A stretch of DNA of 64,000 nucleotides from Planctomycetota bacterium (GCA_038212275.1 JBBQUR010000002.1:222823-286822); one strand, 5' to 3'; positions 1 to 13,896 are shown, counted from the first letter of the stretch. Program-made: numbers and translations. Notes: a model not told the origin generated them from the sequence alone.

Positions 1-303
1 GTCTTCGATGCCGAGCTTGCTGGCGGCTTCCTTTGCCTCGGGCGACGCGAGGCGCGCGAAGGCCTTGCTGTGATCCGTGCCTTCCCACTGGGCGAACTGG
101 TCGCCGCCCGCCTCGGACTTGTGGCAGTTCTTGCACTTGGCGGCGCCGATGTACTTGTTGGCACCCGCCGCGCTGGCGCCAGGAACGGCCGCGCGCACCG
201 GCACGGGATCCAGGGATCCGGCAGCAACGAGACCGAGGGCACACGCGGCGACGACGAGTCCGCTCCAGAGGCTTGAAGACAAACCGAGGCACTTCACGCG
301 CAT
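1..303 (-). CDS. Cytochrome c554-family multiheme cytochrome c, N-terminal part (runs off the window edge)
   Basis: Manual translation from ATG 303 (AGGAGG RBS): MRVKCLGL...signal peptide...NKYIGAAKCKNCHKSEAGGDQFAQW...HSKAF. YIGAxxCxxCH..QxxxW..H is typical of c554-type N-termini. The frame is open to base 1. Confidence 0.8.
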   Translation of the reverse strand, partial: MRVKCLGLSSSLWSGLVVAACALGLVAAGSLDPVPVRAAVPGASAAGANKYIGAAKCKNCHKSEAGGDQFAQWEGTDHSKAFARLASPEAKEAASKLGIED

Positions 304-382
304 CTCCTCCTGAACAGGGCCATTCGATTCCCGGCGCAGTCTGTCCCGAAGGTGGGCGCAGCCGCGCAGGGAGAAATATTCC

Positions 383-398
383 GCAACCCTCGTGCCAA
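383..398 (-). promoter_or_regulatory. sigma54 (RpoN) -24/-12 promoter for the c554-like gene
   Basis: Minus strand TTGGCACGAGGGTTGC, a near-perfect TGGCAC-N5-TTGC with GG-N10-GC spacing, about 80 bp upstream of ATG 303. Confidence 0.8.
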
Positions 399-416
399 CT
401 GCGGAGACCGCGAGCT

Positions 417-1325
417 TCAGTCCGGCGGAAGCGATTCGCCAGCCGACGCGACGCCTGTGTCGGGCCACGCCGGGAAATATCCCGCGGCTGCCGCTGCATT
501 CTCATTGCCGCGGAGCGCCGCGCGGACGGCGGCCGCCCAATCGTCGTCCGCTTCGGCGGCCAGATCGGCGCCAAGCCGCCGGAGCTGCGGGGGCGTGCCG
601 AACTGCGCGACCGTTGCCGCGGCCCGGCGCCGCAGGTCGGGCGGGATCTCGCGAGCGCTCACGCACTCCGCAAGCAGCGCCACGGCGGCCGGCTCCCGTG
701 CGCCACGTGTCGCGAGGTCACTCAGCGCAAACTCGGGCAGCGACGCGTGTCCGGTGACGCGCGCATCCGGATCCGGCGGCAGGCGCAAGGCATGTGCAAA
801 CCAGGTCCCCGCCTCGGGCGAGCCGGTGTCCCGGAGCGCACGCAGCAACGCGACGCGCTCGGCGTCGGCATGACCGGGTGCGAAGACCGACGGAGCCAGC
901 TCGGCAAGTCCGCCCCCAGGCTGTCCGGCGATGACGACGAAGTGCTGATAGAGCGCGCGCTCGCTCCCCGGCCGGGGCTGCCTCGGGAACTCGGCCTGAT
1001 CGGAATCCGCAGGCCCGCTCGCCGCCGCGGGCCACGGCGCCTCGGCGTTCGGCTCGAGCGCAACGGCCTGCAGCGCCTCCGCGGCGACGGAGCCTGCACG
1101 GCGGTTCGCCATCGACGCCGCATCCGGCACATCCGGCACATCTGATGAAGGCATCGCGGCGCTCGAGACCGCCTGGCCCGACGCCTCCACTGCGGCCGGC
1201 GGACGCTGCGGTCCGGCGTCCGCCATCACCAGCGCGATGACCGCGGCGACCGTCGCCAGCACGGCAACGGTCGCTGCAAGCATCGCTCCCCGCGTGCCGG
1301 GTGCCCTGTGGGATGCCGTGTTCAC
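417..1325 (-). CDS. Hypothetical membrane-anchored, helical (HEAT-like) protein co-transcribed with the MtrC-like cytochrome
   Basis: GTG start with GGAGG RBS 10 bp after the decaheme stop; N-terminal hydrophobic segment; Ala/Leu-rich helical body; no CxxCH. Confidence 0.6.
   Translation of the reverse strand: MNTASHRAPGTRGAMLAATVAVLATVAAVIALVMADAGPQRPPAAVEASGQAVSSAAMPSSDVPDVPDAASMANRRAGSVAAEALQAVALEPNAEAPWPAAASGPADSDQAEFPRQPRPGSERALYQHFVVIAGQPGGGLAELAPSVFAPGHADAERVALLRALRDTGSPEAGTWFAHALRLPPDPDARVTGHASLPEFALSDLATRGAREPAAVALLAECVSAREIPPDLRRRAAATVAQFGTPPQLRRLGADLAAEADDDWAAAVRAALRGNENAAAAAGYFPAWPDTGVASAGESLPPD
471..504. promoter_or_regulatory. Conserved 34-bp upstream element, copy 1 (candidate enhancer/UAS)
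   Basis: CGGGAAATATCCCGCGGCTGCCGCTGCATTCTCA matches 5166-5199 at 27/34 positions without gaps; about 75 bp upstream of the sigma54 motif at 383-398. Confidence 0.55.
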
Positions 1326-1335
1326 GCACCTCCCG

Positions 1336-4300
1336 TCAACGCGGCTTGTGGACCAGCTCCACGGCGACTTCCTTGCCCTCGCCGTGGCAAAGGGCGCACG
1401 CCTCGGCGCCCGACAACGTCGTCTGCGTCTCGATATGCACCGTGGTCAGGTCGTCGTCGTGGCACGCACTGCAGACCGAGGCCCATTCATGCACTTCCGG
1501 CGTCTGGCCGCCGACGCCGGGGTAGTCGCGATCCGCGGGGCCCTGCCACAGCGTGTTCTCGGTGCCGTGGCACTTGGTGCAGTTCATCGTGCCGCCGGGG
1601 AAGGCCGGGAACTCGACCTCGTCGTACATCGAGGCGGCGCCGCCGAATCCGATCACCTGGTAGGTGCTGGCATTGGCCAGCTCCGCGCCTCGGTGAATCT
1701 TGTGAAGCATCGTGCGGAAATCGATGGTCACGCCGGTCGACGGAGGCGCCGACGTGGTGTCGTACTGCGCCTTGTCCTCGCCGCCCGAGACGCTGTGGCA
1801 GAGCAGGCAGGACTCCACGCCGCGCCGGCCGCCGCCGTGGAACTGCGTGTCGTTGTGGCACGCGTTGCAGTTGGCGGTGGACGAGATGATCTCGTGCGGC
1901 ATCACCTCCGTGGCCGTGGCGCCGTACAGGAAGTTGAAGTCGACCGCGTTCGAGGTGCTCCGGTAGGTCTGCACCTCGCCCTGCAGGGCGACCTGCAGAT
2001 TCTGCGAGAACCACAGCGAGACGACGCAGGTGCCGTCCACGTAGGGCCTGCCGACCCATTCGCCCCACTCCGGACCCAGCGTGTCGGAGTCATTGGGCGG
2101 CGGCTGGTAGAGAGTCTGCAGCGTGTCGCCCGCGTGCCTGCGGTAGCCGAAGACGCCGTCGGTGCGGTAGGTCAGCACGACGCCGTTGCTGTTGGCGGCG
2201 AAGGGCACGACCGACGTGATCGTGCCGTTGGCGGCGTTCAGCGTGTACTGATTGCCGGCGCCCTCCTGCCGGAAGGTCAGCGTGGCCTTGCCCACCGCCG
2301 CGCCGCTGGCGTGTGCGTAACGCACCGGCGACTTGAACCACATGCGCGTCGCGCTCTCGACCCATCCCAGCTGCAGATACTCGCGGGTGCCCAGACCTGC
2401 TGCGCTGTCGAGCACGACGTAGGTCGTCGAGGCGGTCGTGTAGCCAGCCGTGGACGCGACGTCCACGTAGCGCGCGAACGGCGCGACATCGGCACTGAGC
2501 GTCGTCGGGTTGGCCACGGCCGTCACTTCGGAGAGCGCCTGCCGCCCGAAGTAGACGGGCAGGTTGCCCGCCGTGAAAGTCTGCCCGACCATGCCGTTGC
2601 CATCGCCGAGGTACTCGGTCGTGAACTCCATCGGGAACGCGATCGTGTAGCTGGACGCGTCCGGCACGAACTCGTAGTAGATGCGGTCGGGCGTCGGGAG
2701 CGTGCCCGTGAAGGCCGTACGCCCCGCGATGATCCCGAAGAGCACCTGGCTCGCCGGGCCACCGAGGAGCCCCGACACGCCCGTCTCGAAGACCGTCACG
2801 TAGATGGTGTTGCCCGCGGCGAAGGCCGTGCTGCCCGCCGCGACGAGGAACGCGACGGTGCCGTCATCGGAGGTGAAGGCGTTGCTGCCGCTCACCGTGC
2901 TGGGAAGCGTGCCGGAGCCCATGGCCCCGGTCACGGAGCCCGTGACCGTGAAGGCCTGGGGTCCGGAGAAGGTCACGGCGAGGTTCTGAGTCACGGCGTC
3001 GCTGCGGAGAATGAGCGCGGAGAGCGACGAACCGTTCGGGTTTGTGCTCTTGCCGTCCACCGGCTGCAGCGCGCCGCTGCCGAGGCTGCCGCTCACCGTG
3101 CCCGTGACGGTGAACGCCGTGGCCGAGCTGAACTCCACCGTCAGCGTCTCGGCCACCGCAGGGCCGGACGCGACGACCTTGCTCATCGCGCCCTTGCCCG
3201 ACGCGCTCGCGGCCTGCAGGCGGCCCGCGAAGTCGTACGGGCTGAGGCTGACGTTGCTCGTCCCGGTGTACGGCATCATGACCTGCTGGTTGTTCGTCGG
3301 GCCGAGGAGCAACGACACCGAGGCGTCCATCGCGGTCAGGCCGACGGGGTCGCCCTGCTCGGTGCCGAGGCTGAAGACGAGACGGGGCGTGTCGCCCGCC
3401 TGAAACCTGCCGCCGGCTCCGGTGCCACCCACGACGTCCGTGATGTCCACGTCGATGCCCGCACTGATTGCCGGATCTTCGAGCGGATGGGCGTGACCGT
3501 CCACGACGGCAAGCGAGTCGCCCTCCGTGGCGTGGCACACGTTGCAGGAGCTGCTCGGATTGGCCGGCATGATGTCCTGATTGGCTGCATAGGGCCGGTT
3601 CCAGTCGATGTCGTCGTGGCAACTTCCGCACGAGGCGCGGCCCGGCTGCGACTTGTAGAGATCGCCCTGAGCGGGGGCCTGCAGTTCGCCGCTCCCATCC
3701 GGATCGCCGTGGCACTTCAGGCACGTGGTGGCGCCGGCGCGGATCGCGTCCTCCTGGGCCTTCTGGCCCGAGGTCAGCGCCGAGTAGCCGTAGTCCTTCG
3801 GGACATTCGACGTGAGGTTCGGCCAGACCGGGAAGCGGACGAACGAGAAGTCGTTCACGCTGTTCATGAAGCCGACCACCTCATAGGGCGCCGGAGTCGC
3901 GTCATAGTTGCGCGTCCCGTCTTCGTTCGTCGCCACGCCGTTCACCGACGGCAGGTGGTTGGCGTTGTGCAGCTTGTGGATCATCACCCTGAAGTCGATC
4001 GACACTCCGGGCGTGCCGTCCGCCGCCGTCGCCACGTTCTTGTCCTCGGCGCCGGCCGTGTGACACAGGAGGCAGAGCTTCGCCTCGCGGCGCAGGCCGC
4101 CGTGCGCCTGCAGCGACACGTGGCACTGGTTGCAGTTCTCGGTGCTCACGACGTCGCGCGAGGCGATCGCCGGTGTCGTGCCGAGCAGGAAGTCCTTCGT
4201 GGCGTTGCCGACATCGCGGTAGATGGCGCCATCGACGGTGTAGGTCCAGGCCGTGTACATGCCGACGGTGTAGGTGCCACCCAGCAGCGACTCGCCGGCC

Positions 4301-4857
4301 AGCTCGCCGTCCGCGGCCCCGAAGGACGCGCTGTCATTGAGCGGCGGCAGGTAAGCCTCCGGGATCGGCGTCGCGAAGGTGTACTTGTAGGTGGCCACCC
4401 CCACTTTCACCGAGGCTGTCGCCAGGTCGGACTTCTCCGCGAGCACCCGCTGATAGTTGAAGGAAGGGCCCGACATCATGATGCGCGCGGTGCCCATCTC
4501 GGCCAGGCCCCACGAGGAGCCATCGTTCTTCTTGAGCGTGAAGGTGACCGACAGCTTGTCGCCCGGAGCGAAGTGATCGGAGTTCGGCTTGGCCGCCGAC
4601 GCGCTCGGCGCCGCGGCGGACGGCAGTGAACCGCCGGACAGCTCGATGATCTGCAGTTGCACGCCCGGCGCGTCTTCTGCCGGCAGCAGCTGGGTGTCCT
4701 CCGGCGTCGGCTCGGCCGAACTGCCGCCCGATCCGCCGCCGCCGCCGCCGCTGCCGCCACCGCAACCGGCGAGCAGCCCCGCCGTGCAGAACACCACGGC
4801 CATGAACTGCGCGGGGACCGAGATTCGGAAGAAGGAGGGCAAGGCGCTGAACTTCAT
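1336..4857 (-). CDS. MtrC/OmcA-like decaheme c-type cytochrome lipoprotein, 1173 aa
   Basis: Likely start ATG 4857 (AGAGGA RBS); lipobox LLAGC; 10 CxxCH in two blocks of five (CNQCH, CLLCH, CLKCH, CGSCH, CNVCH / CNACH, CLLCH, CTKCH, CSACH, CALCH); IDFRxMxHKxH motifs after hemes 2 and 7, as in the OmcA/MtrC family. Confidence 0.85.
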   Translation of the reverse strand: MKFSALPSFFRISVPAQFMAVVFCTAGLLAGCGGGSGGGGGGSGGSSAEPTPEDTQLLPAEDAPGVQLQIIELSGGSLPSAAAPSASAAKPNSDHFAPGDKLSVTFTLKKNDGSSWGLAEMGTARIMMSGPSFNYQRVLAEKSDLATASVKVGVATYKYTFATPIPEAYLPPLNDSASFGAADGELAGESLLGGTYTVGMYTAWTYTVDGAIYRDVGNATKDFLLGTTPAIASRDVVSTENCNQCHVSLQAHGGLRREAKLCLLCHTAGAEDKNVATAADGTPGVSIDFRVMIHKLHNANHLPSVNGVATNEDGTRNYDATPAPYEVVGFMNSVNDFSFVRFPVWPNLTSNVPKDYGYSALTSGQKAQEDAIRAGATTCLKCHGDPDGSGELQAPAQGDLYKSQPGRASCGSCHDDIDWNRPYAANQDIMPANPSSSCNVCHATEGDSLAVVDGHAHPLEDPAISAGIDVDITDVVGGTGAGGRFQAGDTPRLVFSLGTEQGDPVGLTAMDASVSLLLGPTNNQQVMMPYTGTSNVSLSPYDFAGRLQAASASGKGAMSKVVASGPAVAETLTVEFSSATAFTVTGTVSGSLGSGALQPVDGKSTNPNGSSLSALILRSDAVTQNLAVTFSGPQAFTVTGSVTGAMGSGTLPSTVSGSNAFTSDDGTVAFLVAAGSTAFAAGNTIYVTVFETGVSGLLGGPASQVLFGIIAGRTAFTGTLPTPDRIYYEFVPDASSYTIAFPMEFTTEYLGDGNGMVGQTFTAGNLPVYFGRQALSEVTAVANPTTLSADVAPFARYVDVASTAGYTTASTTYVVLDSAAGLGTREYLQLGWVESATRMWFKSPVRYAHASGAAVGKATLTFRQEGAGNQYTLNAANGTITSVVPFAANSNGVVLTYRTDGVFGYRRHAGDTLQTLYQPPPNDSDTLGPEWGEWVGRPYVDGTCVVSLWFSQNLQVALQGEVQTYRSTSNAVDFNFLYGATATEVMPHEIISSTANCNACHNDTQFHGGGRRGVESCLLCHSVSGGEDKAQYDTTSAPPSTGVTIDFRTMLHKIHRGAELANASTYQVIGFGGAASMYDEVEFPAFPGGTMNCTKCHGTENTLWQGPADRDYPGVGGQTPEVHEWASVCSACHDDDLTTVHIETQTTLSGAEACALCHGEGKEVAVELVHKPR

Positions 4858-4944
4858 GATCCGAGATCCTCTTGTCCTGAAACCGGGTTGAAGGCGGAGT
4901 GCTCTCACAGGAAGCCGAAGGCACGCCCCTCGCGGACTGCTTGA

Positions 4945-4960
4945 GCAATTGGCGTGCCGT
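4945..4960 (-). promoter_or_regulatory. sigma54 -24/-12 promoter for the MtrC-like gene
   Basis: Minus strand ACGGCACGCCAATTGC (GG-N10-GC, GGCAC..TTGC), about 90 bp upstream of ATG 4857. Confidence 0.75.
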
Positions 4961-5165
4961 TCGCTCAATGGAAATGAGCCTTGAATCGCCGGGGCGCACG
5001 CGTTCGGGAGCCTACTCGACATGTCGCGGCCAAACTTTTCCCACTCGCGGCAGCCTCGTCGCCTCGGAACGGAAGCGTGCGCATGCGACTCACGGCAGAG
5101 GCCTGCCTGCCCCCTGCCGACGCGTGCAGCAGCAACTCGGTCATGTCGCCGGCGCTGAGGCGTCC

Positions 5166-5199
5166 CGGGGAAAATCCCGCTGTCGTCACTGCATTCTCA
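5166..5199. promoter_or_regulatory. Conserved 34-bp upstream element, copy 2
   Basis: CGGGGAAAATCCCGCTGTCGTCACTGCATTCTCA; intergenic; 27/34 identical to 471-504. Confidence 0.55.
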
Positions 5200-5230
5200 G
5201 CTGCGGCTTCACTCGGCGCGGCCGCCTCGC

Positions 5231-5303
5231 TGGTGGCATGCCTCACTGGTGGCATGCCTCACTTGTGGCAGCCCTCACTTGTGGCAGCCCTCACTTGTGG
5301 CAG
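5231..5303. repeat. 16-bp tandem repeat, about 4.5 copies, derived from the 3' end of the 13-heme gene
   Basis: TGGTGGCATGCCTCAC x2, TTGTGGCAGCCCTCAC x2, then TTGTGGCAG. On the minus strand each unit contains TGC CAC (A/C)AG TGA (C-H-K/Q-stop). Confidence 0.9.
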
Positions 5304-6331
5304 AAGGTGCAGTCGTCGCCGTTGTCCACGTGCGGCAACGGAGCGGAGATGCCGTGACAGGCCCGGCAATCCATGCCCGGGAAGTGGTTGGGCGGCTGGT
5401 CGGTGGCATCCAGGTGACTGGGCGTGCTCTTGTGGCACACCGAGCAGCTCTCGCTTTGCAGCGGGTAGTGACATGCCATGCAGTGCGTGTCCTGAGGAGC
5501 GCCCCACGCGCCGCTGTTGTGACTCAGCGGCGGAGTGTCGTTGTGGCAACGCACGCAGGAGGACGGTTCGTGGCAGGTCCTGCACGAGTCGCGATCCATG
5601 TCGGCGACGACGCCGTGGCCGCGCAGTCTCCAGAAGTTGTTGTGACTGGCCGGCGGCTGGTCCTGGTGGCACTTGATGCAGGTCTGGTCCGTGTGGCAGA
5701 GGGTGCAGTCGTTCGCGGGCCCCTCGAAATCGCCGCGCACCGCAACGCCGTGTGTCGTCATCCACTGCTGACTGTGATTCGGGGGCATCGTGTCCGTGTT
5801 GATCAGGCTGTGGCAGACCGTGCACGAGGTGTCCTGGCCGACGCTCTGATGGCAGCGGATGCAGTCGTCCATGCGCGGCGACACGGAGGGATCCACGAAG
5901 TCGTTGGTGAGGATCGGCTCGTGGCACGCTTCGCAGGAGGCGCCCGCGCCGACGTGCGTCGCGTGCGAGAACTTCACCTCGTCCGCCAGCGCCGAGGCGC
6001 GGGTCGCGCGGTAGGCATCGCCGTCGAAGAGCGAGGCCACCTGCCGGTCCGGCTCCTTCCCGGCATCCAGCTCCTCGTGGCACAGCGCGCACTGGGCCGG
6101 CTTCACGTCCTGGACGACGTCGCCGTCCTCGTACGCGGAGTGGCAGTCGCTGCAGCTCAGGCCTTCCTCGAGGTGCCGTTCGTGGCTGAAGGCAAGCGGC
6201 TTGTCGCTCAGGCCCAGATACTGCAGCACCGCGCAGCCGGTGATCGCGAGCACGGCCAGGGAGAGAAGCCTGGCCAACCTGCCGCGCGAACCCGGTCGAC
6301 GCCCATCCGTGAGTCTGTCTAGAAGCGCCAT
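5291..6331 (-). CDS. 13-heme c-type cytochrome lipoprotein (c3/c7-like N-terminus), 346 aa
   Basis: Start ATG 6331 overlaps the porin stop; lipobox AITGC; 13 CxxCH counted; two FSH..H..CxxCH class III motifs followed by repeated PPxH..W...H..CxxCH..CxxCH modules. Confidence 0.9.
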   Translation of the reverse strand: MALLDRLTDGRRPGSRGRLARLLSLAVLAITGCAVLQYLGLSDKPLAFSHERHLEEGLSCSDCHSAYEDGDVVQDVKPAQCALCHEELDAGKEPDRQVASLFDGDAYRATRASALADEVKFSHATHVGAGASCEACHEPILTNDFVDPSVSPRMDDCIRCHQSVGQDTSCTVCHSLINTDTMPPNHSQQWMTTHGVAVRGDFEGPANDCTLCHTDQTCIKCHQDQPPASHNNFWRLRGHGVVADMDRDSCRTCHEPSSCVRCHNDTPPLSHNSGAWGAPQDTHCMACHYPLQSESCSVCHKSTPSHLDATDQPPNHFPGMDCRACHGISAPLPHVDNGDDCTFCHK

Positions 6332-7860
6332 GTTGCCTTCGCCGTGAGGGTGTCGAAGTTGTCCACGTCGCTCACTTCGTGATCGATGCCGAGCGACCAC
6401 GTGAGCGTCTTGTCCACGAGATACCGCATCGTCAGGTAGTAGTCGCGCACGTCCTGGCGATCCTCGTTGAGCAGGAAGTCGTTCTTGTACAGCGCGTAGA
6501 ACGAACCGAGCGACATCCGGACGGCCTTGGTCCACTTCCGCGTGAGGTCGACGCCCCACGTCGCGTATTCGGTGTTGTCGTTGCCGTCCCAGAGCTCGCC
6601 GGTCACCGAGAAGTCCAGGTCTTTCGTGACGAAGTCGTGCGTCGTCTCCGTGAGGAAGTAGCGCGTGAACTCGTGGTTGAAGTCGCCCTCGTCGTCGCTG
6701 TTCTTCAGCTTCCGGCCGTCCAGTCCGGCGGTCACGTCGTAGCCGGCTTCGAAGGATTTGCTGGCCAGCACGCGCGCCTGACGGAAGGGTTCGTACTGCG
6801 TCAGCGTGGCGTAGTAAGGATCGAATTCCTCGACCAGGAACTCCTGCGTGCGAAGCAGCTCGTGATACCAGAAGTTCACCAGCCAGCCGGACTCGGGGCG
6901 CACCCACGTCGCGCGCAGATCGAGATCGCGCGGCTTCTCCTCGAGCACGGAGTAGGCGCCTTCCACGTGCACCTCCTTGCCGAACTGCTGGCCGAGTCGC
7001 GCGGCGTAAAGGTCGTTGTTCTCCGAACCCAGCTGCGACTCGCCCTGCTGCACGCCGTTCTCGATGTGCAGCGCGTCGAGGCGCAGCTTGCCGCCCTCCC
7101 ACGGCCGCACCTTGAAGTAACCGCCGACCACCTTGTTGCCCGACGACGACGACTCGTACTCGTAGTCGGACTGACCGAGGTAGGCGCCGTATTGCTGCCG
7201 CGCCGAGCCATCCGGCGCGGTCTCGATGGCCACGCCGTCGAAGCGCACGTACTCGGGCGTGTCGTCGAGCTGCTGGCGGCCGATGCGCAACAGGCTGAAG
7301 CCGTTCTCGTGGAAGTCCGCGTACGCCTCGTACAGGTTGGAGTGCACGGAGTTGGAGTAGGTGTCCTCCAGACCGCCGTACAGGTCCTGGTTGCTGTTCT
7401 TGTCGAGGTCCCACGCGGCCCGGGCCAGCACGTAGCCGGTCACCTCATCCTTGGCCGCGTCACCGATGCTCGTCTCGAGCAGACCGTAGATGTCCGTGTC
7501 GTGCGTGCCGCCCGTGGTCCTTTCCACGAAGCGCAGCCCGAACGATCCGTGCACCACGCCGCTCTCATCGATCTCGCCTTCCTTGCCATCGTCCGTGGTC
7601 GCGCCCGCGGCGGCAGATCCGTACGGCGAGGCAGCGCCGGCAGGAGTTGTTCCCGGCGCGCCCTCGTCCACGGAGACCACGGCACCTTCGCTCCATGCTG
7701 CGGTGTCGCCCGTCTCGCCGGCGCCCGCTGCGCCTTGAGCAGGACTGCCGCCGGCCGGGCCGGCACAACCCGCCATCAGCGAGGCGGACGCCACGCCGGC
7801 AGCCAGTGCAAGGAGGAGGCCGTAGCCCCTGGGTGCCGATGATTCGCCGTGTCTGTCCAC
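6319..7860 (-). CDS. Outer-membrane beta-barrel (porin of a porin-cytochrome complex)
   Basis: Lipobox LMAGC, low-complexity linker, then alternating amphipathic strands rich in Y/F/W/D; C-terminal KATWRF (BamA-type terminal Phe); directly upstream of and overlapping the multiheme gene. Confidence 0.8.
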   Translation of the reverse strand: MDRHGESSAPRGYGLLLALAAGVASASLMAGCAGPAGGSPAQGAAGAGETGDTAAWSEGAVVSVDEGAPGTTPAGAASPYGSAAAGATTDDGKEGEIDESGVVHGSFGLRFVERTTGGTHDTDIYGLLETSIGDAAKDEVTGYVLARAAWDLDKNSNQDLYGGLEDTYSNSVHSNLYEAYADFHENGFSLLRIGRQQLDDTPEYVRFDGVAIETAPDGSARQQYGAYLGQSDYEYESSSSGNKVVGGYFKVRPWEGGKLRLDALHIENGVQQGESQLGSENNDLYAARLGQQFGKEVHVEGAYSVLEEKPRDLDLRATWVRPESGWLVNFWYHELLRTQEFLVEEFDPYYATLTQYEPFRQARVLASKSFEAGYDVTAGLDGRKLKNSDDEGDFNHEFTRYFLTETTHDFVTKDLDFSVTGELWDGNDNTEYATWGVDLTRKWTKAVRMSLGSFYALYKNDFLLNEDRQDVRDYYLTMRYLVDKTLTWSLGIDHEVSDVDNFDTLTAKATWRF

Positions 7861-7911
7861 TGTATTGCCCTGTGTCCCAGACTTCGGGAAGCGTGTCCGG
7901 GCGCCTCTGTC

Positions 7912-7927
7912 GCAACTGTCATGCCGG
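7912..7927 (-). promoter_or_regulatory. sigma54 -24/-12 promoter for the porin/13-heme operon
   Basis: Minus strand CCGGCATGACAGTTGC (GG-N10-GC), about 50 bp upstream of GTG 7860. Confidence 0.7.
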
Positions 7928-8038
7928 TGTCACGCGCGCGAAGGACCTGCGCTTCCGGTGCACTTGCGGGGCCCCCGAAGCGGCACCTGGTCCCGCGAAT
8001 GCGCCCTCCGGCCGCTGCTCCACCGCTCGGATCGCGAA

Positions 8039-8521
8039 CTATTCCGCATCTCCTCTGGTGAACTCCACGCCGCGAGGCGGCGTCTCCGCGTGTCGAGTGA
8101 ATCGGGAGTGATCTGCTCCTGACTCCCGAACCGCGGAGCCCGCACGCACCACCTTCACCTGCTGGCCGCAGAGCTCGTCCATGAGGCGCTCGAGCGCCGC
8201 GTCCTCGAACTCGTCCCAGCCCTTGCAGAGGTCGCGCTCGAGCAGCTGCGTGTCGCAACACAGCTCGGCCCCGAAGCGCCGCTTCCGCTCGACCAGCCAG
8301 GCGTTGGCGAGCGCCTCGAATTCCGCACGCGGGAGCTCGGGATGCCTCAGCGACAACCACCAGAAGCGCCGCTTGAGATCGGCGTAGCTCCACCGGGCAA
8401 AGCCGTGGCAGAGCGTGCCGGTGCGTGCGGCAACCTCGCAGAGGCAGTGCTTGTCATCCACCTGTTCCGCGAGACGCGGGCGCAGAAGGTCGATGGCTTG
8501 CTCACGCGTGATGGTCTTCAT
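8039..8521 (-). CDS. Cys-rich hypothetical protein, 160 aa
   Basis: ATG 8521 with GAGG RBS: MKTITREQAIDLL...CLCEVAAR..LCHGF...CCDTQ..LCKGWDEF. 7 Cys, no signal peptide. Confidence 0.7.
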   Translation of the reverse strand: MKTITREQAIDLLRPRLAEQVDDKHCLCEVAARTGTLCHGFARWSYADLKRRFWWLSLRHPELPRAEFEALANAWLVERKRRFGAELCCDTQLLERDLCKGWDEFEDAALERLMDELCGQQVKVVRAGSAVRESGADHSRFTRHAETPPRGVEFTRGDAE

Positions 8522-8600
8522 GGCGCTACCTCGGGCGATCGAGGGGAGTGAGGGTGATCGGATGCCACGGCAGCAGCCGATGCCAGCTGTCCCGAAGCAA

Positions 8601-8616
8601 GCAACTATCCATCCAG
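8601..8616 (-). promoter_or_regulatory. Weaker sigma54-like promoter for the Cys-rich gene
   Basis: Minus strand CTGGATGGATAGTTGC: TGG-N10-GC with TTGC, but the CAC after GG is not conserved; 80 bp upstream of ATG 8521. Confidence 0.4.
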
Positions 8617-8779
8617 CGACTTCGCTTCGCTGCGCTCCCGCCCGGGCACGCGTCGAGCCGGCCGTCAGCGATCGCGATCGGGTGCGCGACCTGCCCGTTC
8701 CAGTCGCTAGAATCCGCGCCTCGTTCGGCGGCGCGCTTCCCTGACGGAGCGCTCGGCGCGCGCTCACTCGGGAGACGAC

Positions 8780-10018
8780 ATGGCCAGCAAGCCGCGCAAG
8801 GGGCGCACCGCCGCCAAGAAGAAGAGCTCCTCCGCGCCACGCCGCAGCGCCGCGGGCAGTCGTCCGGGGACCAGCACCAGGTCGGCCGAAGCCGCCGCCA
8901 TCAAGTCCCACGAGCACTGGCGCGAGCACATGGGCACGGGGCACAGCGACGGCCTCGTGCCGGTGCGCTCGCTGGACCTCTCGACCGTCTCCTCCGTGAA
9001 TGACCTCGTCCGCGGCATGTCGGCCACGAGCTTCGGCGGGCGATCGCTGGGCGAGGCGGCCGACATCCTGGAAGTCATGGTGCGCGACCCGGGCTGCAAG
9101 GTCGTGCTCACGCTCTCGGGCGCGATGACCATCGCGAAGCAGGGCCTCATCATCGCGGACATGATCGAGCGCGGCTGGGTGCATGCCGTCGTCTCCACCG
9201 GCGCGCTCATGTGCCACGGCATGGTCGAGACCGCCGGCATGCTGCACTTCAAGCACGACCCGACCATGGGCGACGAGAAGCTCTTCGCCAAGGGCTACAA
9301 CCGCGTCTACGACACGATCGAGCTGGAGCAGAACCTCGACGACACCGAGAAAATCATGGCGAAGATCCTCGGCAGCGTGCCGGAGAACGAGCACGGCCTC
9401 CCCGAGACGCTCTGCAGCCACAAGCTGAACCGCCGTATCGGCGAGTACCTCGCGCGGCACACGAAGGGCCGCGGTCCGCTGCGCTCGGCCTTCGAGCACG
9501 ACGTGCCCATTTATGTCCCGGCGTTCACCGACAGCGAACTCGGCCTGGACTACGGCACCAACAATCATCGCCGCCGCCTCGCCGGCAAGGGCCCGATCCC
9601 CTACGACCCCTTCCTCGACCTCGAGGACTTCCGCACGCGCATCGACAGCCACGAGACCTGGGGCATCTTCACCATCGGCGGCGGCGTGCCGCGCAACTGG
9701 GCCCAGCAGGTCGCGCCCTACATCGACATCCTCGGCAAGCGCCTGCCGGAGATGCGCCGGCCGCTGCGCCGCTACAGATACGCGGTGCGCATCTGCCCGG
9801 AGCCCGTGCACTGGGGCGGCCTCTCCGGCTGCGACTACAGCGAATCCGTGAGCTGGGGCAAGATCGTGCCGCGCAGCGAAGGCGGCCGCTGGGCCGAGGT
9901 CAAGGACGACGCGACCATCGCCTGGCCGCTCATCGTGAAGGCCGTCATGGAGCGCGTGGATGGCGCGGGCGGCAGGCGCAAGCGCGCGGCATCCCCTCGT
10001 GCGGCGCCCGGGCGCTGA
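8780..10018 (+). CDS. Deoxyhypusine synthase-family protein (probable homospermidine synthase)
   Basis: SFGGRSLGEA, LSGAM, VVSTGA, YVPAFTDSELG, IGGGVPRNW, GGLSGC..SESVSWGKI (catalytic Lys position), DATIAWPL. Confidence 0.9.
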   Translation: MASKPRKGRTAAKKKSSSAPRRSAAGSRPGTSTRSAEAAAIKSHEHWREHMGTGHSDGLVPVRSLDLSTVSSVNDLVRGMSATSFGGRSLGEAADILEVMVRDPGCKVVLTLSGAMTIAKQGLIIADMIERGWVHAVVSTGALMCHGMVETAGMLHFKHDPTMGDEKLFAKGYNRVYDTIELEQNLDDTEKIMAKILGSVPENEHGLPETLCSHKLNRRIGEYLARHTKGRGPLRSAFEHDVPIYVPAFTDSELGLDYGTNNHRRRLAGKGPIPYDPFLDLEDFRTRIDSHETWGIFTIGGGVPRNWAQQVAPYIDILGKRLPEMRRPLRRYRYAVRICPEPVHWGGLSGCDYSESVSWGKIVPRSEGGRWAEVKDDATIAWPLIVKAVMERVDGAGGRRKRAASPRAAPGR

Positions 10019-10202: not shown

Positions 10203-11048
10203 TCAGCGCGGCGCGGCCGCTTTCTCAGCGTCGCCGGCCGCGGGCGCAACACCACCCGTGACGCTGTTCCCGCCGACGCCGTCGGAGCCGTCCGCCGCGC
10301 GCGGCTTGGCCGGCTGCTCTTCGCCGCCGGACGCGTCGCTGGCCTTGTCCGTCGCCCTGTCCTCCACGCTGGCCTTGGCGTTCTTCTCGCGCAGCAGCTC
10401 GATGAGCTGCGCCGGGCTCTTGCCGGACAGCACTTCCTGGAACTGCGATCGGAAGTTCTGGACGAGGCTCACGTTCTCGATGGTGATGTCGATGATCTGC
10501 CACGCGCCGGTGTCCTTGTTCGCGCGCAGGCGGTAGTCGATGAGCGTGTCGCCCTGCTCCTTGGAGATCACCTTGGAGCGCACCGTCCAGTCGCCCTTGC
10601 CCTCGTCGCGCGAGTCGTAGATCTCGATCGTCGAGAACTTGGCCCCCTCCGCGTTGCGGTAGTAGGTGGCGATGAGGTGTTCGCGGAACTGCTTGCGGAA
10701 CTCGGCCTGCTCCTCGGTCGTGAACTTGCCGTAGTTCTTGGCGAGCACGAGCTTGGACACGACCATCATGTCGAGGCGGTTGTCCACGATGTCGACGATG
10801 CGCTCGCGCCGCGCGTGGCTGTCGAGGGTCGGATCCTTCAGCAGCGCGATGACCTTGTCGGCCGTGTCCTGGATGACCGCACGCGCACCGTCGGAGGGCG
10901 CCGTCTGCGCGGCGAGGGGCTGCGCGGCCGGCACCATCGCCGCGGCGGTCCGGGCAAGGCACGGCGAGGCCAGCACCGCGACGAGCAGCGCGGCGGCGGG
11001 CAGGATGCGGACGGCGGACGCGAGTTTCGTGTCAGGGTCGGGGTGCAT
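10203..11048 (-). CDS. mlaC: Phospholipid-binding periplasmic protein MlaC/ttg2D
   Basis: Signal peptide; VL.K.Y..FT.EEQAEF, DYRLR, WQIIDITIENVSLVQNFRSQF; last gene of the mla operon. Confidence 0.9.
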   Translation of the reverse strand: MHPDPDTKLASAVRILPAAALLVAVLASPCLARTAAAMVPAAQPLAAQTAPSDGARAVIQDTADKVIALLKDPTLDSHARRERIVDIVDNRLDMMVVSKLVLAKNYGKFTTEEQAEFRKQFREHLIATYYRNAEGAKFSTIEIYDSRDEGKGDWTVRSKVISKEQGDTLIDYRLRANKDTGAWQIIDITIENVSLVQNFRSQFQEVLSGKSPAQLIELLREKNAKASVEDRATDKASDASGGEEQPAKPRAADGSDGVGGNSVTGGVAPAAGDAEKAAAPR

Positions 11049-11838
11049 CGTCGGGCTCCGTAGCCAGGTCTTCGTCGTAGAAATCTTCATTAGCCTGCTG
11101 GGTTGCGGCCGGCTGCTGCGCCATCTCGCCCTCGATCGCGATGCGGCGACGCTGCAGGTAGGCGTTGCGCACGAACACGTAGTAGTCGAGCGAGGCCAGC
11201 CGCGCCTCGCGCAGCGGCTGGAGCAGCTGCGCGCGCGTGTTGACCACATCCACGACGCGTGAGCCGATCAGGACCGCGTCGTCCACGTCCCACACGGCGT
11301 TGTACGTCACGACGTCACCGACGAGGCCGGCCGTGTCGCGCGGACTGGACGGACCGAACAGCGGCAGCACGAGGTAGGGCCCCGAAGACACGCCCCACAC
11401 CGCGAGGGTCTGGCCGAAGTCCTCGGGCCGCTCGATCAGGCCCATGTCCTTCGCCGGGTCGAAGAAGCCCACGATGCCCAGCGTGGTGTTGACCACGAAC
11501 CGCAGCGTCTCGGTGCCGGCGTCCTCGAACTTGGCCTGCAGGAGGTTGTTGAGCACGTGCACGGGCGCCGCGGCATTGGTGAAGAAGTCGTCCACCGAGC
11601 GCTGCACGCGCGGCGTCGTGATCTCGTTCCAGCCGCGCGCCGTCGGCTCGAGCACGTAGTCGTCGAGCTGCTCGTTGAACCAGAACACCTTCCGGTTCAT
11701 GCCTTCCCACGGGTCGGCCTCGCTCGTGGTGCCCGGCGCGGCGCACCCGACGAGCGGCAGCGCAGCGACGCACGGCAGCAGCAGCATGCGCGACGCACGC
11801 GACAGGCGCGCCGCCAGCCCACGTTCGCGAAGGCTCAC
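11032..11838 (-). CDS. mlaA: MlaA/VacJ lipoprotein
   Basis: Lipobox LVGC; DPWEGMNRKVFWFN, EDFGQTLAVWGV..GPYLVLPLFGPSSPRD. Confidence 0.92.
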   Translation of the reverse strand: MSLRERGLAARLSRASRMLLLPCVAALPLVGCAAPGTTSEADPWEGMNRKVFWFNEQLDDYVLEPTARGWNEITTPRVQRSVDDFFTNAAAPVHVLNNLLQAKFEDAGTETLRFVVNTTLGIVGFFDPAKDMGLIERPEDFGQTLAVWGVSSGPYLVLPLFGPSSPRDTAGLVGDVVTYNAVWDVDDAVLIGSRVVDVVNTRAQLLQPLREARLASLDYYVFVRNAYLQRRRIAIEGEMAQQPAATQQANEDFYDEDLATEPDDAPRP

Positions 11839-12296
11839 TTCTCGTCTCCCACCGACGTGTTGTGGATCAACTTGCCGATGAGACGTTCGAGCAGCACCGC
11901 GGACTCCGTGAACGGGATCTTGTCGCCGTTCTGCAGGAAGTCCTCTTCGCCGCCGAGCTGCAGCAGCAGGTAGCGGTCGCCGAGGATGCCCGAGGTCATG
12001 ATGGAGGCGCTGCTGTCCGACGGGTACTTGCGCCCGGCGTCCACGTCGAGCTCCACGCGGGCGCGACCTTCCTCATCCAGCGTGATGGAGCGCACCTCGC
12101 CCACCTTCACGCCGGAGATCTCCACCGGCGCGCGCACCTTGAGGCCGCCGATCTCGTCGAAGCCCGCATAGAGAGTGAGCTGCGGCGGCCGGCTGAGGCT
12201 GACGCCGCCGACCTGCAGGGTGAGGTAGGCGATGGCGGCGAGGCCGACCAGCACGAACAGGCCGACGACGAAGTCGCGCAGCGGAGAGCGTTCCAT
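11835..12296 (-). CDS. mlaD: MCE-domain protein MlaD
   Basis: DFVVGLFVL, FDEIGGLKVRAPVEISGVKVGEV, TSGILGDRYL. Confidence 0.93.
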   Translation of the reverse strand: MERSPLRDFVVGLFVLVGLAAIAYLTLQVGGVSLSRPPQLTLYAGFDEIGGLKVRAPVEISGVKVGEVRSITLDEEGRARVELDVDAGRKYPSDSSASIMTSGILGDRYLLLQLGGEEDFLQNGDKIPFTESAVLLERLIGKLIHNTSVGDEK

Positions 12297-12299
12297 GGG

Positions 12300-13073
12300 T
12301 CAGATTCCCCAGAGGGCCGTGACGATGTAGTCGAGCAGAAGCACGGTGACGGACGCCGTGACCACCGTCGAGGTGGTGGCCGCGCTGACGCCGGCCGAGT
12401 TGGGTTTCGAGGTGAAGCCGCGCCACGTGGAGATGAGGCCCACGACGACGCCGAAGACGACCGCCTTCACCAGGCTTCCGACCACGTCTTCGTGAAAGTC
12501 CACGTTGGCGTAGAGATTGCTCATGTAGCGGCCGCCGTCGACACCCATGAGCGACACGCCGACGAGATAACCGCCGCCCATGCCGCACGTGATGAAAAGC
12601 GCGGACAGCAGCGGCATGACGACGATCATCGCCAGCAGGCGCGGCACGACGACGAAGCTCATCGGGTTCACGGCCATCATGCGCAGGCCGTCGAGCTGCT
12701 CGGTGGCCACCATCGTGCCGATCTCCGCGGTCGTCGCGGAACCCGCGCGTCCTGTCGCGAGCAGCGCGGTGAGCACCGGCCCCAGCTCGCGCAGCAGCGA
12801 GATGCCGACGACCGCGCCGAGCGAGTCCGTCGCGCCGAAGCGCTGCAGCGTGTTGTAGCCCTGCAGCGCGAGCACGGCGCCCACCGCCGCGCCGCTGACG
12901 CAGATGATCACCAGCGAGAGCACGCCCAGCTTGTAGAGCTCGTCGAAGAAGACGCCCATGCGGAACGGCGGCCGCAGGGCCTGCAGCATCGCGCTGCCGG
13001 AGAACGCCGTGAAGCGTCCGAGCTGCTCCACGAAGTTCAGCGCCGAAAAGCCGAGGTTCTGGATCGCCTTCAT
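12300..13073 (-). CDS. mlaE: MlaE permease
   Basis: RELGPVLTALL.GRAGSA.TAEIGTM..TEQLDGL..M; start placed at MKAIQ. Confidence 0.93.
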   Translation of the reverse strand: MKAIQNLGFSALNFVEQLGRFTAFSGSAMLQALRPPFRMGVFFDELYKLGVLSLVIICVSGAAVGAVLALQGYNTLQRFGATDSLGAVVGISLLRELGPVLTALLATGRAGSATTAEIGTMVATEQLDGLRMMAVNPMSFVVVPRLLAMIVVMPLLSALFITCGMGGGYLVGVSLMGVDGGRYMSNLYANVDFHEDVVGSLVKAVVFGVVVGLISTWRGFTSKPNSAGVSAATTSTVVTASVTVLLLDYIVTALWGI

Positions 13074-13080
13074 CGCGCGC

Positions 13081-13896
13081 TCAACCTTCCACACCCTTGG
13101 CGGTGAGTACGGCCTCGTCCACGTCCGCACTGATGAGGTTGGCGACGAGCGGGTCCTTGCTCGCGCGCAACTCCGACGGCGTGCCCTGGACGGCGGCCTT
13201 GCGCACCAGCACGAGCACGTGGTCGGCCATGCGCAGCGTGGACGGGACGTCGTGCGAGATCACGATCATGGTCACGCCCAGCGAGCGGTTGAGATCCTTG
13301 AGCAGGTTCTCGATGCGGCGCGCCGAGATCGTGTCGAGGCCCGAGAAGGGCTCGTCGCAGAGCAGGTATTGCGGGTCGCGGATGATCGCGCGGGCCAGCG
13401 CCACGCGCTTGAGCATGCCTCCCGAGAGCTGGCCAGGCAGCAGCCGGTCCTCGTCCGCCGACAGCCCGACGGCGGTCAGCTTGGCGTGCACGCGTTCGCG
13501 GATCTCCGCCTCGCTCAGCCGGGTGTGCTCGCGCAGCGGAAAGGCAAGGTTGTCGTACACCGAGAACGAGTCGAGCAGCGCGCCGGCCTGGAACATCATC
13601 CCGATCTGCTCGCGCACCGCGTACAGGCCGCGCTCGGCGAGGGTGGTGAGTTCCTTGTCGCCGACGCGCACATGCCCGGCCCTGGGGTGCAGCAGGCCGC
13701 CGATGAGCCGCAGCAGCGTGCTCTTGCCGGAGCCGCTGCCGCCGAGGATCACGGAGATCTGCCCGGCGGGGAAGCGGCACGTCAGGTCATCGAAGATGAC
13801 GCGGCTTCCGAAGGCCATGCGCACGTGGTCGAACGCGACCTCGCCGCCCCGCCCTCGTTGCGCCACCTGCGCGCCGTCCTGACCGTTCGCCGACAT
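13081..13896 (-). CDS. mlaF: ABC ATPase MlaF
   Basis: Walker A GGSGSGKS, LSGGMLKRVALARA, CDEPFSGLD; first gene of the operon. An alternative start at 13914 is possible. Confidence 0.92.
   Translation of the reverse strand: MSANGQDGAQVAQRGRGGEVAFDHVRMAFGSRVIFDDLTCRFPAGQISVILGGSGSGKSTLLRLIGGLLHPRAGHVRVGDKELTTLAERGLYAVREQIGMMFQAGALLDSFSVYDNLAFPLREHTRLSEAEIRERVHAKLTAVGLSADEDRLLPGQLSGGMLKRVALARAIIRDPQYLLCDEPFSGLDTISARRIENLLKDLNRSLGVTMIVISHDVPSTLRMADHVLVLVRKAAVQGTPSELRASKDPLVANLISADVDEAVLTAKGVEG

What the first reader, a model, noticed from the sequence alone, without database searches (positions are those of the whole stretch)
371..8616. The cytochrome cluster appears to be a sigma54 regulon with separate promoters
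Seen: GG-N10-GC motifs at 383-398 (TTGGCACGAGGGTTGC), 4945-4960 (ACGGCACGCCAATTGC) and 7912-7927 (CCGGCATGACAGTTGC), each 50-90 bp upstream of a start and correctly oriented, plus a weaker one at 8601-8616. I noticed no comparable motif in other intergenic regions I read. Known: sigma54 promoters require an enhancer-binding AAA+ activator. Inference: the conduit parts are separately but co-ordinately induced by a bEBP encoded elsewhere, unlike the CRP-type control known for Shewanella mtr.
Basis: partly seen in the sequence, partly recalled or inferred. Interest (0 to 1): 0.7.

Follow-up and report, generated by a model that had tools for sequence, protein, structure and literature searches.

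The report
Sigma-54 promoters on a cytochrome conduit
Three textbook sigma-54 (-24/-12) promoter sequences sit in front of the porin, the outer cytochrome and a small cytochrome of a Planctomycetota electron-export gene cluster, and relatives keep them, so the cluster is very probably switched on by sigma-54 and a still unidentified activator protein, a known kind of control in a new setting.

Summary
All genes and motifs lie on the minus strand. The sites are TGGCACGAGGGTTGCG (382-397), CGGCACGCCAATTGCT (4944-4959) and CGGCATGACAGTTGCG (7911-7926). Each lies 52-88 nt before the start of a cytochrome c gene, an OmcA/MtrC-family gene and a lipoprotein porin gene. With my sigma-54 matrix they rank 1, 2 and 6 of about 128,000 positions in the window. 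They are the only intergenic hits at that level. Composition-matched simulation expects 0.05 such intergenic regions; three are seen.

Conservation is the stronger evidence. In relative L030 (76-83% protein identity) all three sites are kept while the surrounding intergenic DNA is only 54-62% identical. Nucleotide similarity stops just upstream of each -24 element. The porin site recurs in four further lineages (43-62% porin identity), with a changed spacer but GGCAYG and TTGC kept.

The mtrC and cytochrome c promoters are specific to the window/L030 lineage. The fourth motif (8596-8616) is conserved but a poor match.

A 35-nt element and a 14-bp near-palindrome lie 88-262 nt upstream of the three promoters in both genomes. 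They are candidate enhancers.

No rpoN or activator gene is in the window or in 32 related loci, and no transcription start data exist. Verdict: a new member of a known kind, of moderate interest.

The parts
382..398 (-). Predicted sigma-54 promoter of the cytochrome c gene, TTGGCACGAGGGTTGCG. The predicted transcription start is near 371 and the 5' UTR is about 68 nt.
   Evidence: Matrix rank 1 in the window, 16.3 bits. A 28-nt run (399-372) is identical in L030, where the rest of the intergenic region is 62% identical.
4944..4960 (-). Predicted sigma-54 promoter of the OmcA/MtrC-family gene (and of B), ACGGCACGCCAATTGCT. The predicted transcription start is near 4933.
   Evidence: Rank 2, 14.9 bits. 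L030 has CGGCACGCCGATTGCT at the same place, with only a spacer base changed. The blastn similarity block ends at 4962.
7911..7927 (-). Predicted sigma-54 promoter of the porin-mtrA unit, CCGGCATGACAGTTGCG. The predicted transcription start is near 7900.
   Evidence: Rank 6, 11.7 bits. A 22-nt run is identical in L030. Sites at the same place occur in L001/L006, L007, L008/L009 and L010 with different spacers. The related strain in run X3 has no substitution in it.
8596..8616 (-). Weak candidate promoter of gene F, CTGGATGGATAGTTGCTTGCT.
   Evidence: 11.3 and 10.1 bits in two registers. 20 of 21 bases are identical in L030 against 55% elsewhere, and the similarity block ends at 8618. However, it scores below 8.5 bits in L030. 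A distant F homologue (L031) has a strong site, TGGTATGGGGCTTGCA.
470..504 (-). Copy 1 of the 35-nt element, TGAGAATGCAG-N9-GCGGGATATTTCCCGG. It lies in the 3' end of ORF B, 88 nt upstream of the cyt c promoter. Candidate enhancer.
   Evidence: Repeat D20. The four-way alignment with L030 has an invariant core.
5165..5199 (-). Copy 2 of the 35-nt element, in the mtrA-mtrC gap, 221 nt upstream of the mtrC promoter. Candidate enhancer.
   Evidence: L030 has the orthologous copy at 5096-5130.
8034..8047 (-). 14-bp near-palindrome GCGGAATAGTTCGC, 120 nt upstream of the porin promoter. The other copies are at 371-384, 472-485 and 5167-5180.
   Evidence: Four copies, all on the minus strand. Four copies lie at the equivalent places in L030. 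The pattern was derived after seeing the copies.
6319..7860 (-). Lipoprotein outer-membrane porin, 513 aa, lipobox LMAGC.
   Evidence: No Pfam or NCBIfam hit. Always followed by the periplasmic multihaem gene in relatives.
5291..6331 (-). Periplasmic multihaem cytochrome (MtrA-like role), 346 aa, 13 CXXCH. Its start overlaps the porin stop by 13 nt.
1336..4857 (-). OmcA/MtrC-family lipoprotein cytochrome, 1173 aa, 10 CXXCH.
   Evidence: TIGR03507 at 254.6 bits against a cut-off of 209.3. PF22113 at 3.6e-43.
417..1325 (-). ORF B, 302 aa, membrane-anchored and Ala-rich, no known family. It starts about 10 nt after the mtrC stop.
   Evidence: Homologues occupy the same position in L006, L008, L011 and L030.
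1..303 (-). 5' part of a c554-like cytochrome c gene. The L030 homologue is 239 aa and is followed by a further multihaem gene.
8039..8521 (-). Gene F, 160 aa, cytoplasmic, with 5 invariant Cys. Function unknown.

Best explanation
The region is a porin-cytochrome gene cluster for extracellular electron transfer. Its nearest relatives are Planctomycetota metagenome-assembled genomes. All genes lie on the minus strand.

It is most likely transcribed as three sigma-54-dependent units:
- P(porin), 7911-7927, driving the porin and the periplasmic multihaem cytochrome. These two genes overlap by 13 nt.
- P(mtrC), 4944-4960, driving the OmcA/MtrC-family surface cytochrome and ORF B.
- P(cyt c), 382-398, driving the c554-like cytochrome and probably the next multihaem gene, which lies beyond the window edge.

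Sigma-54 holoenzyme would bind GG(-24)/GC(-12) as a closed complex. It would fire only when an AAA+ enhancer-binding protein, bound upstream, remodels it. The best candidate for that upstream site is the near-palindrome GCGGAAT|ATTCCGC. At two promoters it is part of a conserved 35-nt element. It lies 88-221 nt upstream of each promoter, and an extra copy overlaps the -12 region of the cyt c promoter. One regulator could therefore switch all three units together.

Shown here: the motifs, their positions, their statistical rarity and their conservation.
Inferred: sigma-54 dependence, the enhancer role of the repeated element, and co-ordinate induction.
Unknown: the activator and its signal.
For: (1) All three sites have GG and GC exactly 10 nt apart and match TGGCACG-N4-TTGCW with 1, 1 and 3 mismatches. 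They rank 1, 2 and 6 in the window.

(2) They are intergenic, in the sense orientation and 52-88 nt from start codons. Three of the four sense intergenic regions carry a hit of 11.6 bits or more, against 0.053 expected, and 0 of 4000 simulations reach that.

(3) L030 has the same gene order and 76-83% protein identity in the porin and cytochromes. It keeps 17/17, 15/17 and 17/17 motif bases, while the rest of each intergenic region is 54-62% identical. The longest identical run covers the motif at the porin (22 nt) and cyt c (28 nt) promoters. The blastn blocks end at 4962, 7932 and 8618, just upstream of each -24 element.

(4) The porin site is present 37-69 nt before the porin start in L001/L006, L007, L008/L009 and L010. 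The spacers differ (ACAC, AGCT, CAGT, GGCT) but GGCAYG and TTGC are unchanged. It is often the only hit of 11 bits or more in the whole locus.

(5) A more distant cluster, L002/L015, has TGGCATGATCCTTGCG after its mtrA gene.

(6) No sigma-70-like promoter was found in 1-9000. The two elements are 4 nt apart, which does not fit the 16-17 nt spacing of sigma-70 or ECF promoters (established knowledge).

(7) The 35-nt element is conserved in four instances. The 14-bp motif is at the four equivalent places in L030.

(8) Planctomycetota have rpoN, for example Rhodopirellula baltica RB6491 (PMC2754498). Sigma-54 is nearly universal in diderm LPS bacteria (PMC3162934).

(9) A close relative transcribes these genes in compost.
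Against: No transcription start data: the one RNA run gives only contigs over coding parts.

Neither rpoN nor any enhancer-binding protein could be sought in the source genome. None lies in the window or in the 32 related loci.

The mtrC and cyt c promoters are not conserved beyond L030. L001 and L006 have a 37-nt mtrA-mtrC gap, and L006 has only a degenerate CGGCATGCGCCTTTCT before cyt c.

L011 (43% porin identity) and most clusters below 42% identity lack a site before the porin.

The matrix is my own approximation. The total hit count in the window is not above background.

The candidate enhancer was defined after seeing the copies and is absent from the more distant loci. One of its copies lies in coding sequence.
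Confidence: 0.75

Rival explanations
1. Only the porin promoter is a working sigma-54 promoter. The mtrC and cyt c sites would be lineage-specific look-alikes or recent acquisitions with little activity, and the whole cluster would be read mainly as one long transcript from the porin promoter.
For: Only the porin site is conserved across several lineages. L001 and L006 have no room for an mtrC promoter, with a 37-nt gap. Relatives L004 and L014 have cyt c directly after the preceding gene.
Against: The two lineage-specific sites are the two best matches in the window. They are held identical between the window and L030 amid 54-62% identical DNA. Similarity stops right at their -24 elements. 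Each has the repeated upstream element. L002 has independently acquired a site after mtrA.
Confidence: 0.12
2. The motifs are conserved for another reason, and transcription uses another sigma factor. They could be operators of an unrelated DNA-binding protein. At 380-405 the sequence could be a terminator hairpin of the mtrC-B unit.
For: The consensus scan flags a terminator-like stem plus T-rich tail at 405-380, just after the stop of ORF B. The cyt c site overlaps the 14-bp near-palindrome, which could be an operator.
Against: The hairpin is not in the minimum-energy fold, and the region folds worse than shuffles (z = +1.06). Its left arm is not conserved in L030, where identity begins exactly at GTTGGCAC. 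The conserved positions in 13 sites are exactly the sigma-54 contact bases, at fixed 10-nt spacing, while the spacer varies. The motif is not palindromic.
Confidence: 0.06
3. The motifs are chance matches in GC-rich DNA.
For: The overall number of matrix hits in the window equals background. The best local alignment of the window and L001 upstream regions is not significant on its own (27 against 24.5 +/- 3.6).
Against: Simulation gives 0 of 4000 runs with three such regions. The sites are conserved in L030 and in four further lineages.
Confidence: 0.03

Closest known systems
Sigma-54 (RpoN) -24/-12 promoters with enhancer-binding-protein activation. Consensus TGGCACG-N4-TTGCW; Geobacter sulfurreducens regulon consensus TTGGCACGGTTTTTGCT (PMC2725144).
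   Same: GG and GC 10 nt apart. Two sites match the extended consensus with one mismatch. The sites are intergenic, in the sense orientation and 40-76 nt before the start codon. There is a candidate upstream palindromic site at about -90 to -260.
   Different: Nothing has been verified experimentally. The -26 base is C rather than T at two of the three sites. No activator gene lies next to the targets. There is a single candidate enhancer site per promoter rather than the usual pair.
Geobacter sulfurreducens cbcBA operon with its divergent sigma-54 activator BccR (bioRxiv 10.1101/2021.04.15.440034).
   Same: A respiratory multihaem cytochrome operon used for extracellular electron acceptors, placed under a sigma-54 promoter and a dedicated activator.
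   Different: cbcBA encodes an inner-membrane quinol-oxidising bc complex with one promoter and the activator gene next door. Here the outer-membrane conduit itself is the target, there are three promoters, and no activator is nearby.
Shewanella oneidensis omcA-mtrCAB with two CRP-activated promoters that share a conserved upstream sequence (PMC4417206).
   Same: An OmcA/MtrC-family surface cytochrome, a periplasmic multihaem cytochrome and an outer-membrane porin. The cluster is split over more than one promoter, and those promoters share a repeated upstream element.
   Different: The Shewanella promoters are sigma-70 type and cAMP-CRP dependent. Gene order here is porin, periplasmic cytochrome, surface cytochrome. 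The porin is a lipoprotein with no MtrB/PioB family match.
Porin-cytochrome c complexes reported in Planctomycetota metagenome-assembled genomes (PMC10732223). L005 carries the OFTM isolate prefix used for the genomes of that paper.
   Same: The same phylum and the same kind of gene cluster.
   Different: That work lists the genes. It does not describe promoters.

Membership tests
sigma-54-dependent (-24/-12) promoter | Invariant GG and GC dinucleotides separated by exactly 10 nt | tested here: met
   All four window sites and the 10 sites compiled from relatives.
sigma-54-dependent (-24/-12) promoter | Match to the extended consensus TGGCACG-N4-TTGCW well above background | tested here: met
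   1, 1 and 3 mismatches. Ranks 1, 2 and 6 of about 128,000 positions. 0 of 4000 simulations reach three regions. The fourth site does not meet this.
sigma-54-dependent (-24/-12) promoter | Lies upstream of a gene, in the sense orientation, in non-coding DNA | tested here: met
   52-88 nt before the starts at 303, 4857 and 7860.
sigma-54-dependent (-24/-12) promoter | -24 and -12 elements conserved in orthologous upstream regions while the spacer and flanks drift | tested here: met
   All three sites in L030. The porin site also in L001/L006, L007, L008/L009 and L010.
sigma-54-dependent (-24/-12) promoter | The genome encodes RpoN | not testable with these tools
   The window and related loci carry no RpoN box. 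The source contig is not retrievable. The phylum does have rpoN (PMC2754498).
sigma-54-dependent (-24/-12) promoter | A cognate AAA+ enhancer-binding protein (GAFTGA loop) | tested here: inconclusive
   No GAFTGA or ESELFG signature in six frames of the window or of the loci fetched by then. Pfam scans of 46 window ORFs show no PF00158. The rest of the genome was not seen.
sigma-54-dependent (-24/-12) promoter | An upstream activator sequence about 80-200 nt upstream | tested here: inconclusive
   A 14-bp near-palindrome lies 88, 120 and 221 nt upstream and is conserved in L030. Binding is untested and the pattern was chosen after seeing the copies.
sigma-54-dependent (-24/-12) promoter | Transcription start 11-13 nt downstream of the GC | not testable with these tools
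   Only one RNA run exists, kept as contigs over coding parts.
MtrCAB-type porin-cytochrome conduit | OmcA/MtrC-family decahaem surface lipoprotein | tested here: met
   TIGR03507 at 254.6 bits, above the 209.3 cut-off. PF22113 at 3.6e-43. 10 CXXCH. Lipobox LLAGC.
MtrCAB-type porin-cytochrome conduit | MtrA/DmsE-family periplasmic decahaem cytochrome | tested here: not met
   TIGR03508 scores only 23.9 bits against a cut-off of 192.2. The protein has 13 CXXCH. It has the same role and position but is not a family member.
MtrCAB-type porin-cytochrome conduit | MtrB/PioB-family beta-barrel porin | tested here: not met
   No Pfam or NCBIfam hit at E <= 0.01. The role is inferred from conserved synteny and the signal peptide only.

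The most novel reading that the evidence does not exclude
The three promoters and the repeated 35-nt/14-bp element would form a dedicated sigma-54 regulon for an outer-membrane electron conduit in uncultured Planctomycetota, run by one unlinked enhancer-binding protein. The window/L030 lineage would have split an ancestral single operon (as in L001/L006) by inserting an 'enhancer plus -24/-12 promoter' module in front of mtrC and cyt c. The enhancer copy that overlaps the -12 region of the cyt c promoter would make the same protein both activator and brake.
Probability: 0.35. Interest if true: 0.5.

Novelty: new member of a known kind. Interest (0 to 1): 0.38.

Why it matters
Porin-cytochrome conduits of Planctomycetota are known only from metagenomes, and nothing is known about when they are used. 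Sigma-54 promoters are silent without their activator. The conserved sites therefore give precise handles. They make three predictions:
- the conduit is tightly inducible;
- transcripts begin near 371, 4933 and 7900;
- a single regulator binds GCGGAAT|ATTCCGC.

Finding that regulator would point to the environmental signal that turns on extracellular electron transfer in this phylum. The comparison with L001/L006 also shows how an operon can be subdivided by acquiring internal sigma-54 promoters.

The mechanism itself is textbook, and a sigma-54-controlled cytochrome operon is already described in Geobacter. A specialist would find this useful rather than surprising.

Tried and rejected
- **Bare GG-N10-GC counts.** Uninformative at 70% GC.
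- **Local alignment of the window and L001 upstream regions.** The best hit is the motif, but the score is not significant by itself.
- **Terminator reading of 380-405.** Raised. Rejected on folding and because its left arm is not conserved.
- **Transcription starts from public RNA.** One compost metatranscriptome covers only coding parts, as contigs. Nothing covers the intergenic regions, even at 80% likeness.
- **Walking the 296-kb source contig to look for rpoN or an activator.** The window's own proteins are not on record.
- **The 14-bp motif in more distant loci.** No match. The shared ATTCGCGGGA of the window and L001 is not kept in the closer L030, so I treat it as chance.
- **The TTCGGGACAG string shared by the cyt c and F leaders.** Not conserved in L030, so chance.
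- **Site 38975-38990.** Inside a coding N-terminus.
- **Antisense hits TGGTAGAC..CTGCAG within mtrC in many loci.** Conserved coding sequence, not promoters.
- **Structure of F.** Model too poor to search with, pLDDT 58.8. No sequence match in the PDB.
- **LysR gene next to the cluster in L001, L006 and L030.** Absent from the window.

Full report
**What is there.** The window has 70% G+C. Positions 1-8600 carry a minus-strand cluster, in this order:
- Gene F (8521-8039): 160 aa, Cys-rich, no known family.
- A lipoprotein porin (7860-6319): 513 aa, no family.
- A periplasmic multihaem cytochrome (6331-5291): 13 CXXCH. Its start overlaps the porin stop by 13 nt.
- A 433-nt gap.
- An OmcA/MtrC-family lipoprotein cytochrome (4857-1336): TIGR03507 at 254.6 bits against a cut-off of 209.3, with 10 CXXCH.
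- ORF B (1325-417).
- The start of a c554-like cytochrome c (303-1).

The nearest relatives are Planctomycetota metagenome-assembled genomes and soil or sediment metagenome contigs. They share the order porin, mtrA-like, mtrC-like, (B), cyt c. The rest of the window holds housekeeping genes, including an mla operon, priA, ftsK, tpiA and prfC. It has no sigma-54-type regulator.

Bare GG-N10-GC means nothing at this G+C content: 217 hits against 226 expected in 8.5 kb. The extended core is informative.

I scored the window with a 16-position matrix that I approximated from the published sigma-54 compilation. It is my own approximation, not a curated model. The sites rank 1, 2 and 6 of about 128,000 positions. 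The fourth region ranks 7 and 16. The total number of hits is at background. What is non-random is that the best ones fall in the four sense intergenic regions of one cluster. First-order Markov simulation of those regions expects 0.053 regions at 11.6 bits or more, and gives three or more in 0 of 4000 runs. The only other apparently intergenic hit (38975-38990) is inside a coding N-terminus.

**Conservation, the main evidence.** A homologue of gene F led to L030, a 50-kb metagenome contig with the same architecture: LysR, F, porin, mtrA, 540-nt gap, mtrC, B, cyt c, further multihaem gene. Protein identity to the window is 83% (porin), 83% (mtrA), 76% (mtrC), 69% (F) and 62% (B).

In global alignments of the four intergenic regions:

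| Region | Motif bases identical | Identity elsewhere |
|---|---|---|
| cyt c promoter | 17/17 | 62% |
| mtrC promoter | 15/17 | 54% |
| porin promoter | 17/17 | 61% |
| fourth motif, upstream of F | 20/21 | 55% |

The two mtrC changes are one spacer base and one flanking base. The longest identical run covers the motif at the cyt c promoter (28 nt), the porin promoter (22 nt) and the F motif (13 nt).

The blastn similarity blocks run from each coding region up through the leader. They stop at window positions 4962, 7932 and 8618, just upstream of each -24 element. This is what a core-promoter boundary should look like.

Further out, the porin site recurs 37-69 nt before the porin start in four more lineages:
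- L001/L006: CGGCATGACACTTGCA
- L007: CGGCACGAGCTTTGCG
- L008/L009: CGGCACGCAGTTTGCA
- L010: CGGCACGGGCTTTGCG

The four spacer bases differ, while GGCAYG and TTGC stay fixed. It is often the only hit of 11 bits or more in the whole locus.

A strain about 93% identical, in an activated-sludge metagenome, has 13 substitutions and one deletion between 7840 and 8050. None falls in the motif. On its own that is weak evidence.

A more distant cluster, L002/L015, has TGGCATGATCCTTGCG after its mtrA gene, and L021 has GGGCATGGCGTTTGCA before its porin.

**Limits of the 'separate promoters' idea.** In L001 and L006 mtrC follows mtrA after 37 nt with no promoter. L006 has only a degenerate site before cyt c, and in L004 and L014 cyt c abuts the preceding gene. 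L011 has lost the canonical porin site. Most clusters with less than 42% porin identity show none. The three-promoter layout therefore belongs to the window/L030 lineage. The ancestral state looks like one promoter in front of the porin.

**The fourth motif.** CTGGATGGATAGTTGC keeps GG and GC but has ATG in place of CAC. The block is conserved in L030 and marks the end of sequence similarity. It scores below 8.5 bits there. A distant F homologue (L031) has a strong site, TGGTATGGGGCTTGCA, 48 nt before its start, while L014 has none. I rate it about even that this is a weak sigma-54 promoter.

**A candidate enhancer.** A 35-nt repeat, GAGAATGCAG-N10-GCGGGWTWTTYCCC, occurs at 470-504 and at 5165-5199. 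The first copy is inside the 3' end of ORF B. The second is in the mtrA-mtrC gap. Both copies are conserved in L030, and the four-way alignment has an invariant core with unrelated flanks.

Its 3' half is a near-palindrome, GCGGAAT|ATTCCGC. It has four minus-strand copies in the window: 371-384, 472-485, 5167-5180 and 8034-8047. L030 has four at the equivalent places. They lie 88, 221 and 120 nt upstream of the cyt c, mtrC and porin promoters. One more copy overlaps the -12 region of the cyt c promoter.

This is the geometry expected of an activator binding site. However, the pattern was derived after seeing the copies, it is absent from more distant loci, and binding is untested. Shewanella's two mtr promoters likewise share a conserved upstream sequence, which is bound there by CRP (PMC4417206).

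**Rivals.**
- A terminator-like hairpin at 405-380 was flagged. It is not part of the minimum-energy fold (z = +1.06), and its left arm is not conserved.
- Sigma-70 or ECF promoters do not fit. No such match exists in 1-9000, and the two conserved elements are 4 nt apart rather than 16-17 nt.
- Chance is excluded.

**What could not be tested.** No GAFTGA, ESELFG or RpoN-box signature occurs in the window or in the related loci. The source contig could not be walked. The only RNA data are contigs from a compost metatranscriptome. They show that a 93-96% identical relative expresses the three large genes, but they give no 5' ends.

From the literature:
- Rhodopirellula baltica has an expressed rpoN (PMC2754498).
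- Sigma-54 is near-universal in diderm LPS bacteria (PMC3162934).
- Geobacter places its cbcBA cytochrome operon under sigma-54 and the activator BccR (bioRxiv 10.1101/2021.04.15.440034).
- The Geobacter RpoN consensus is TTGGCACGGTTTTTGCT (PMC2725144).

**Verdict.** The three strong motifs are very probably functional sigma-54 promoters (confidence 0.75). The promoter class and the split architecture hold for this lineage. The regulator, the signal and co-ordinate induction remain inferred. This is a new instance of a known regulatory kind in a poorly known phylum, of moderate interest.

Noticed in passing
window 5224-5303: A 16-bp unit (GCCTCACTTGTGGCAG) is repeated five times in tandem. On the coding strand it is the last codons plus the stop of the MtrA-like gene (C-H-K-stop), reiterated after the real stop. 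It is absent from L030 and L001. Assembly contigs of the source run break here.
   Followed up: partly
window 470-504 and 5165-5199; L030 9848-9882 and 5096-5130: A 35-nt element is conserved in two paralogous and two orthologous copies. One copy is inside the 3' end of ORF B and one is in non-coding DNA. Within each genome the two copies share the same variant base (GGGAT in the window, GGGTT in L030), which hints at concerted change.
   Followed up: partly
window 8039-8521 (gene F); L014 5508-5885; L030 1581-2072; L031 466-867: F belongs to a very rare family of small cytoplasmic proteins with five invariant Cys and one invariant His (6 clusters among 5.8 billion proteins). Its genes lie next to porin-cytochrome clusters, an AhpC gene or an ECF sigma factor gene. 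The structure model was too poor to use (pLDDT 58.8).
   Followed up: partly
L001 688-1656; L030 456-1409: A LysR-family regulator gene lies just upstream of the cluster in L001 and L030, but it is absent from the window, where a deoxyhypusine-synthase-like gene (8780-10018) is divergent from F.
   Followed up: partly
window 6319-7860: The porin has a lipoprotein signal peptide (LMAGC) and no Pfam or NCBIfam family. It has only three other homologous clusters in the large protein collection and about 26 related loci in the genome and metagenome scans. It may be an unnamed porin family for electron conduits.
   Followed up: partly
window 1336-7390 (run X5): A compost metatranscriptome holds contigs 93-96% identical to the coding parts of the mtrC-like, mtrA-like and porin genes, so a close relative expresses the conduit in nature.
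   Followed up: partly
L008 10806-10842: Two tandem sigma-54-like hits (11.6 and 14.9 bits) lie at the very end of a 723-aa ORF, just before an ORF whose N-terminus looks to me like that of a Rieske-type protein (not scanned), downstream of that locus's cytochrome cluster.
   Followed up: no
window 2105-2120 (+) and the equivalent places in L001, L006-L009, L011, L012 and L030: A recurring antisense matrix hit, TGGTAGAC..CTGCAG, lies inside the mtrC-like gene. It is conserved coding sequence and is a reminder that conserved hits inside genes are not promoters.
   Followed up: yes
window 10203-13896: A complete mla-type lipid-transport operon (MlaC/HpnM-like, MlaA, MlaD, MlaE and the ABC ATPase) lies next to the cytochrome cluster on the same strand.
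   Followed up: no
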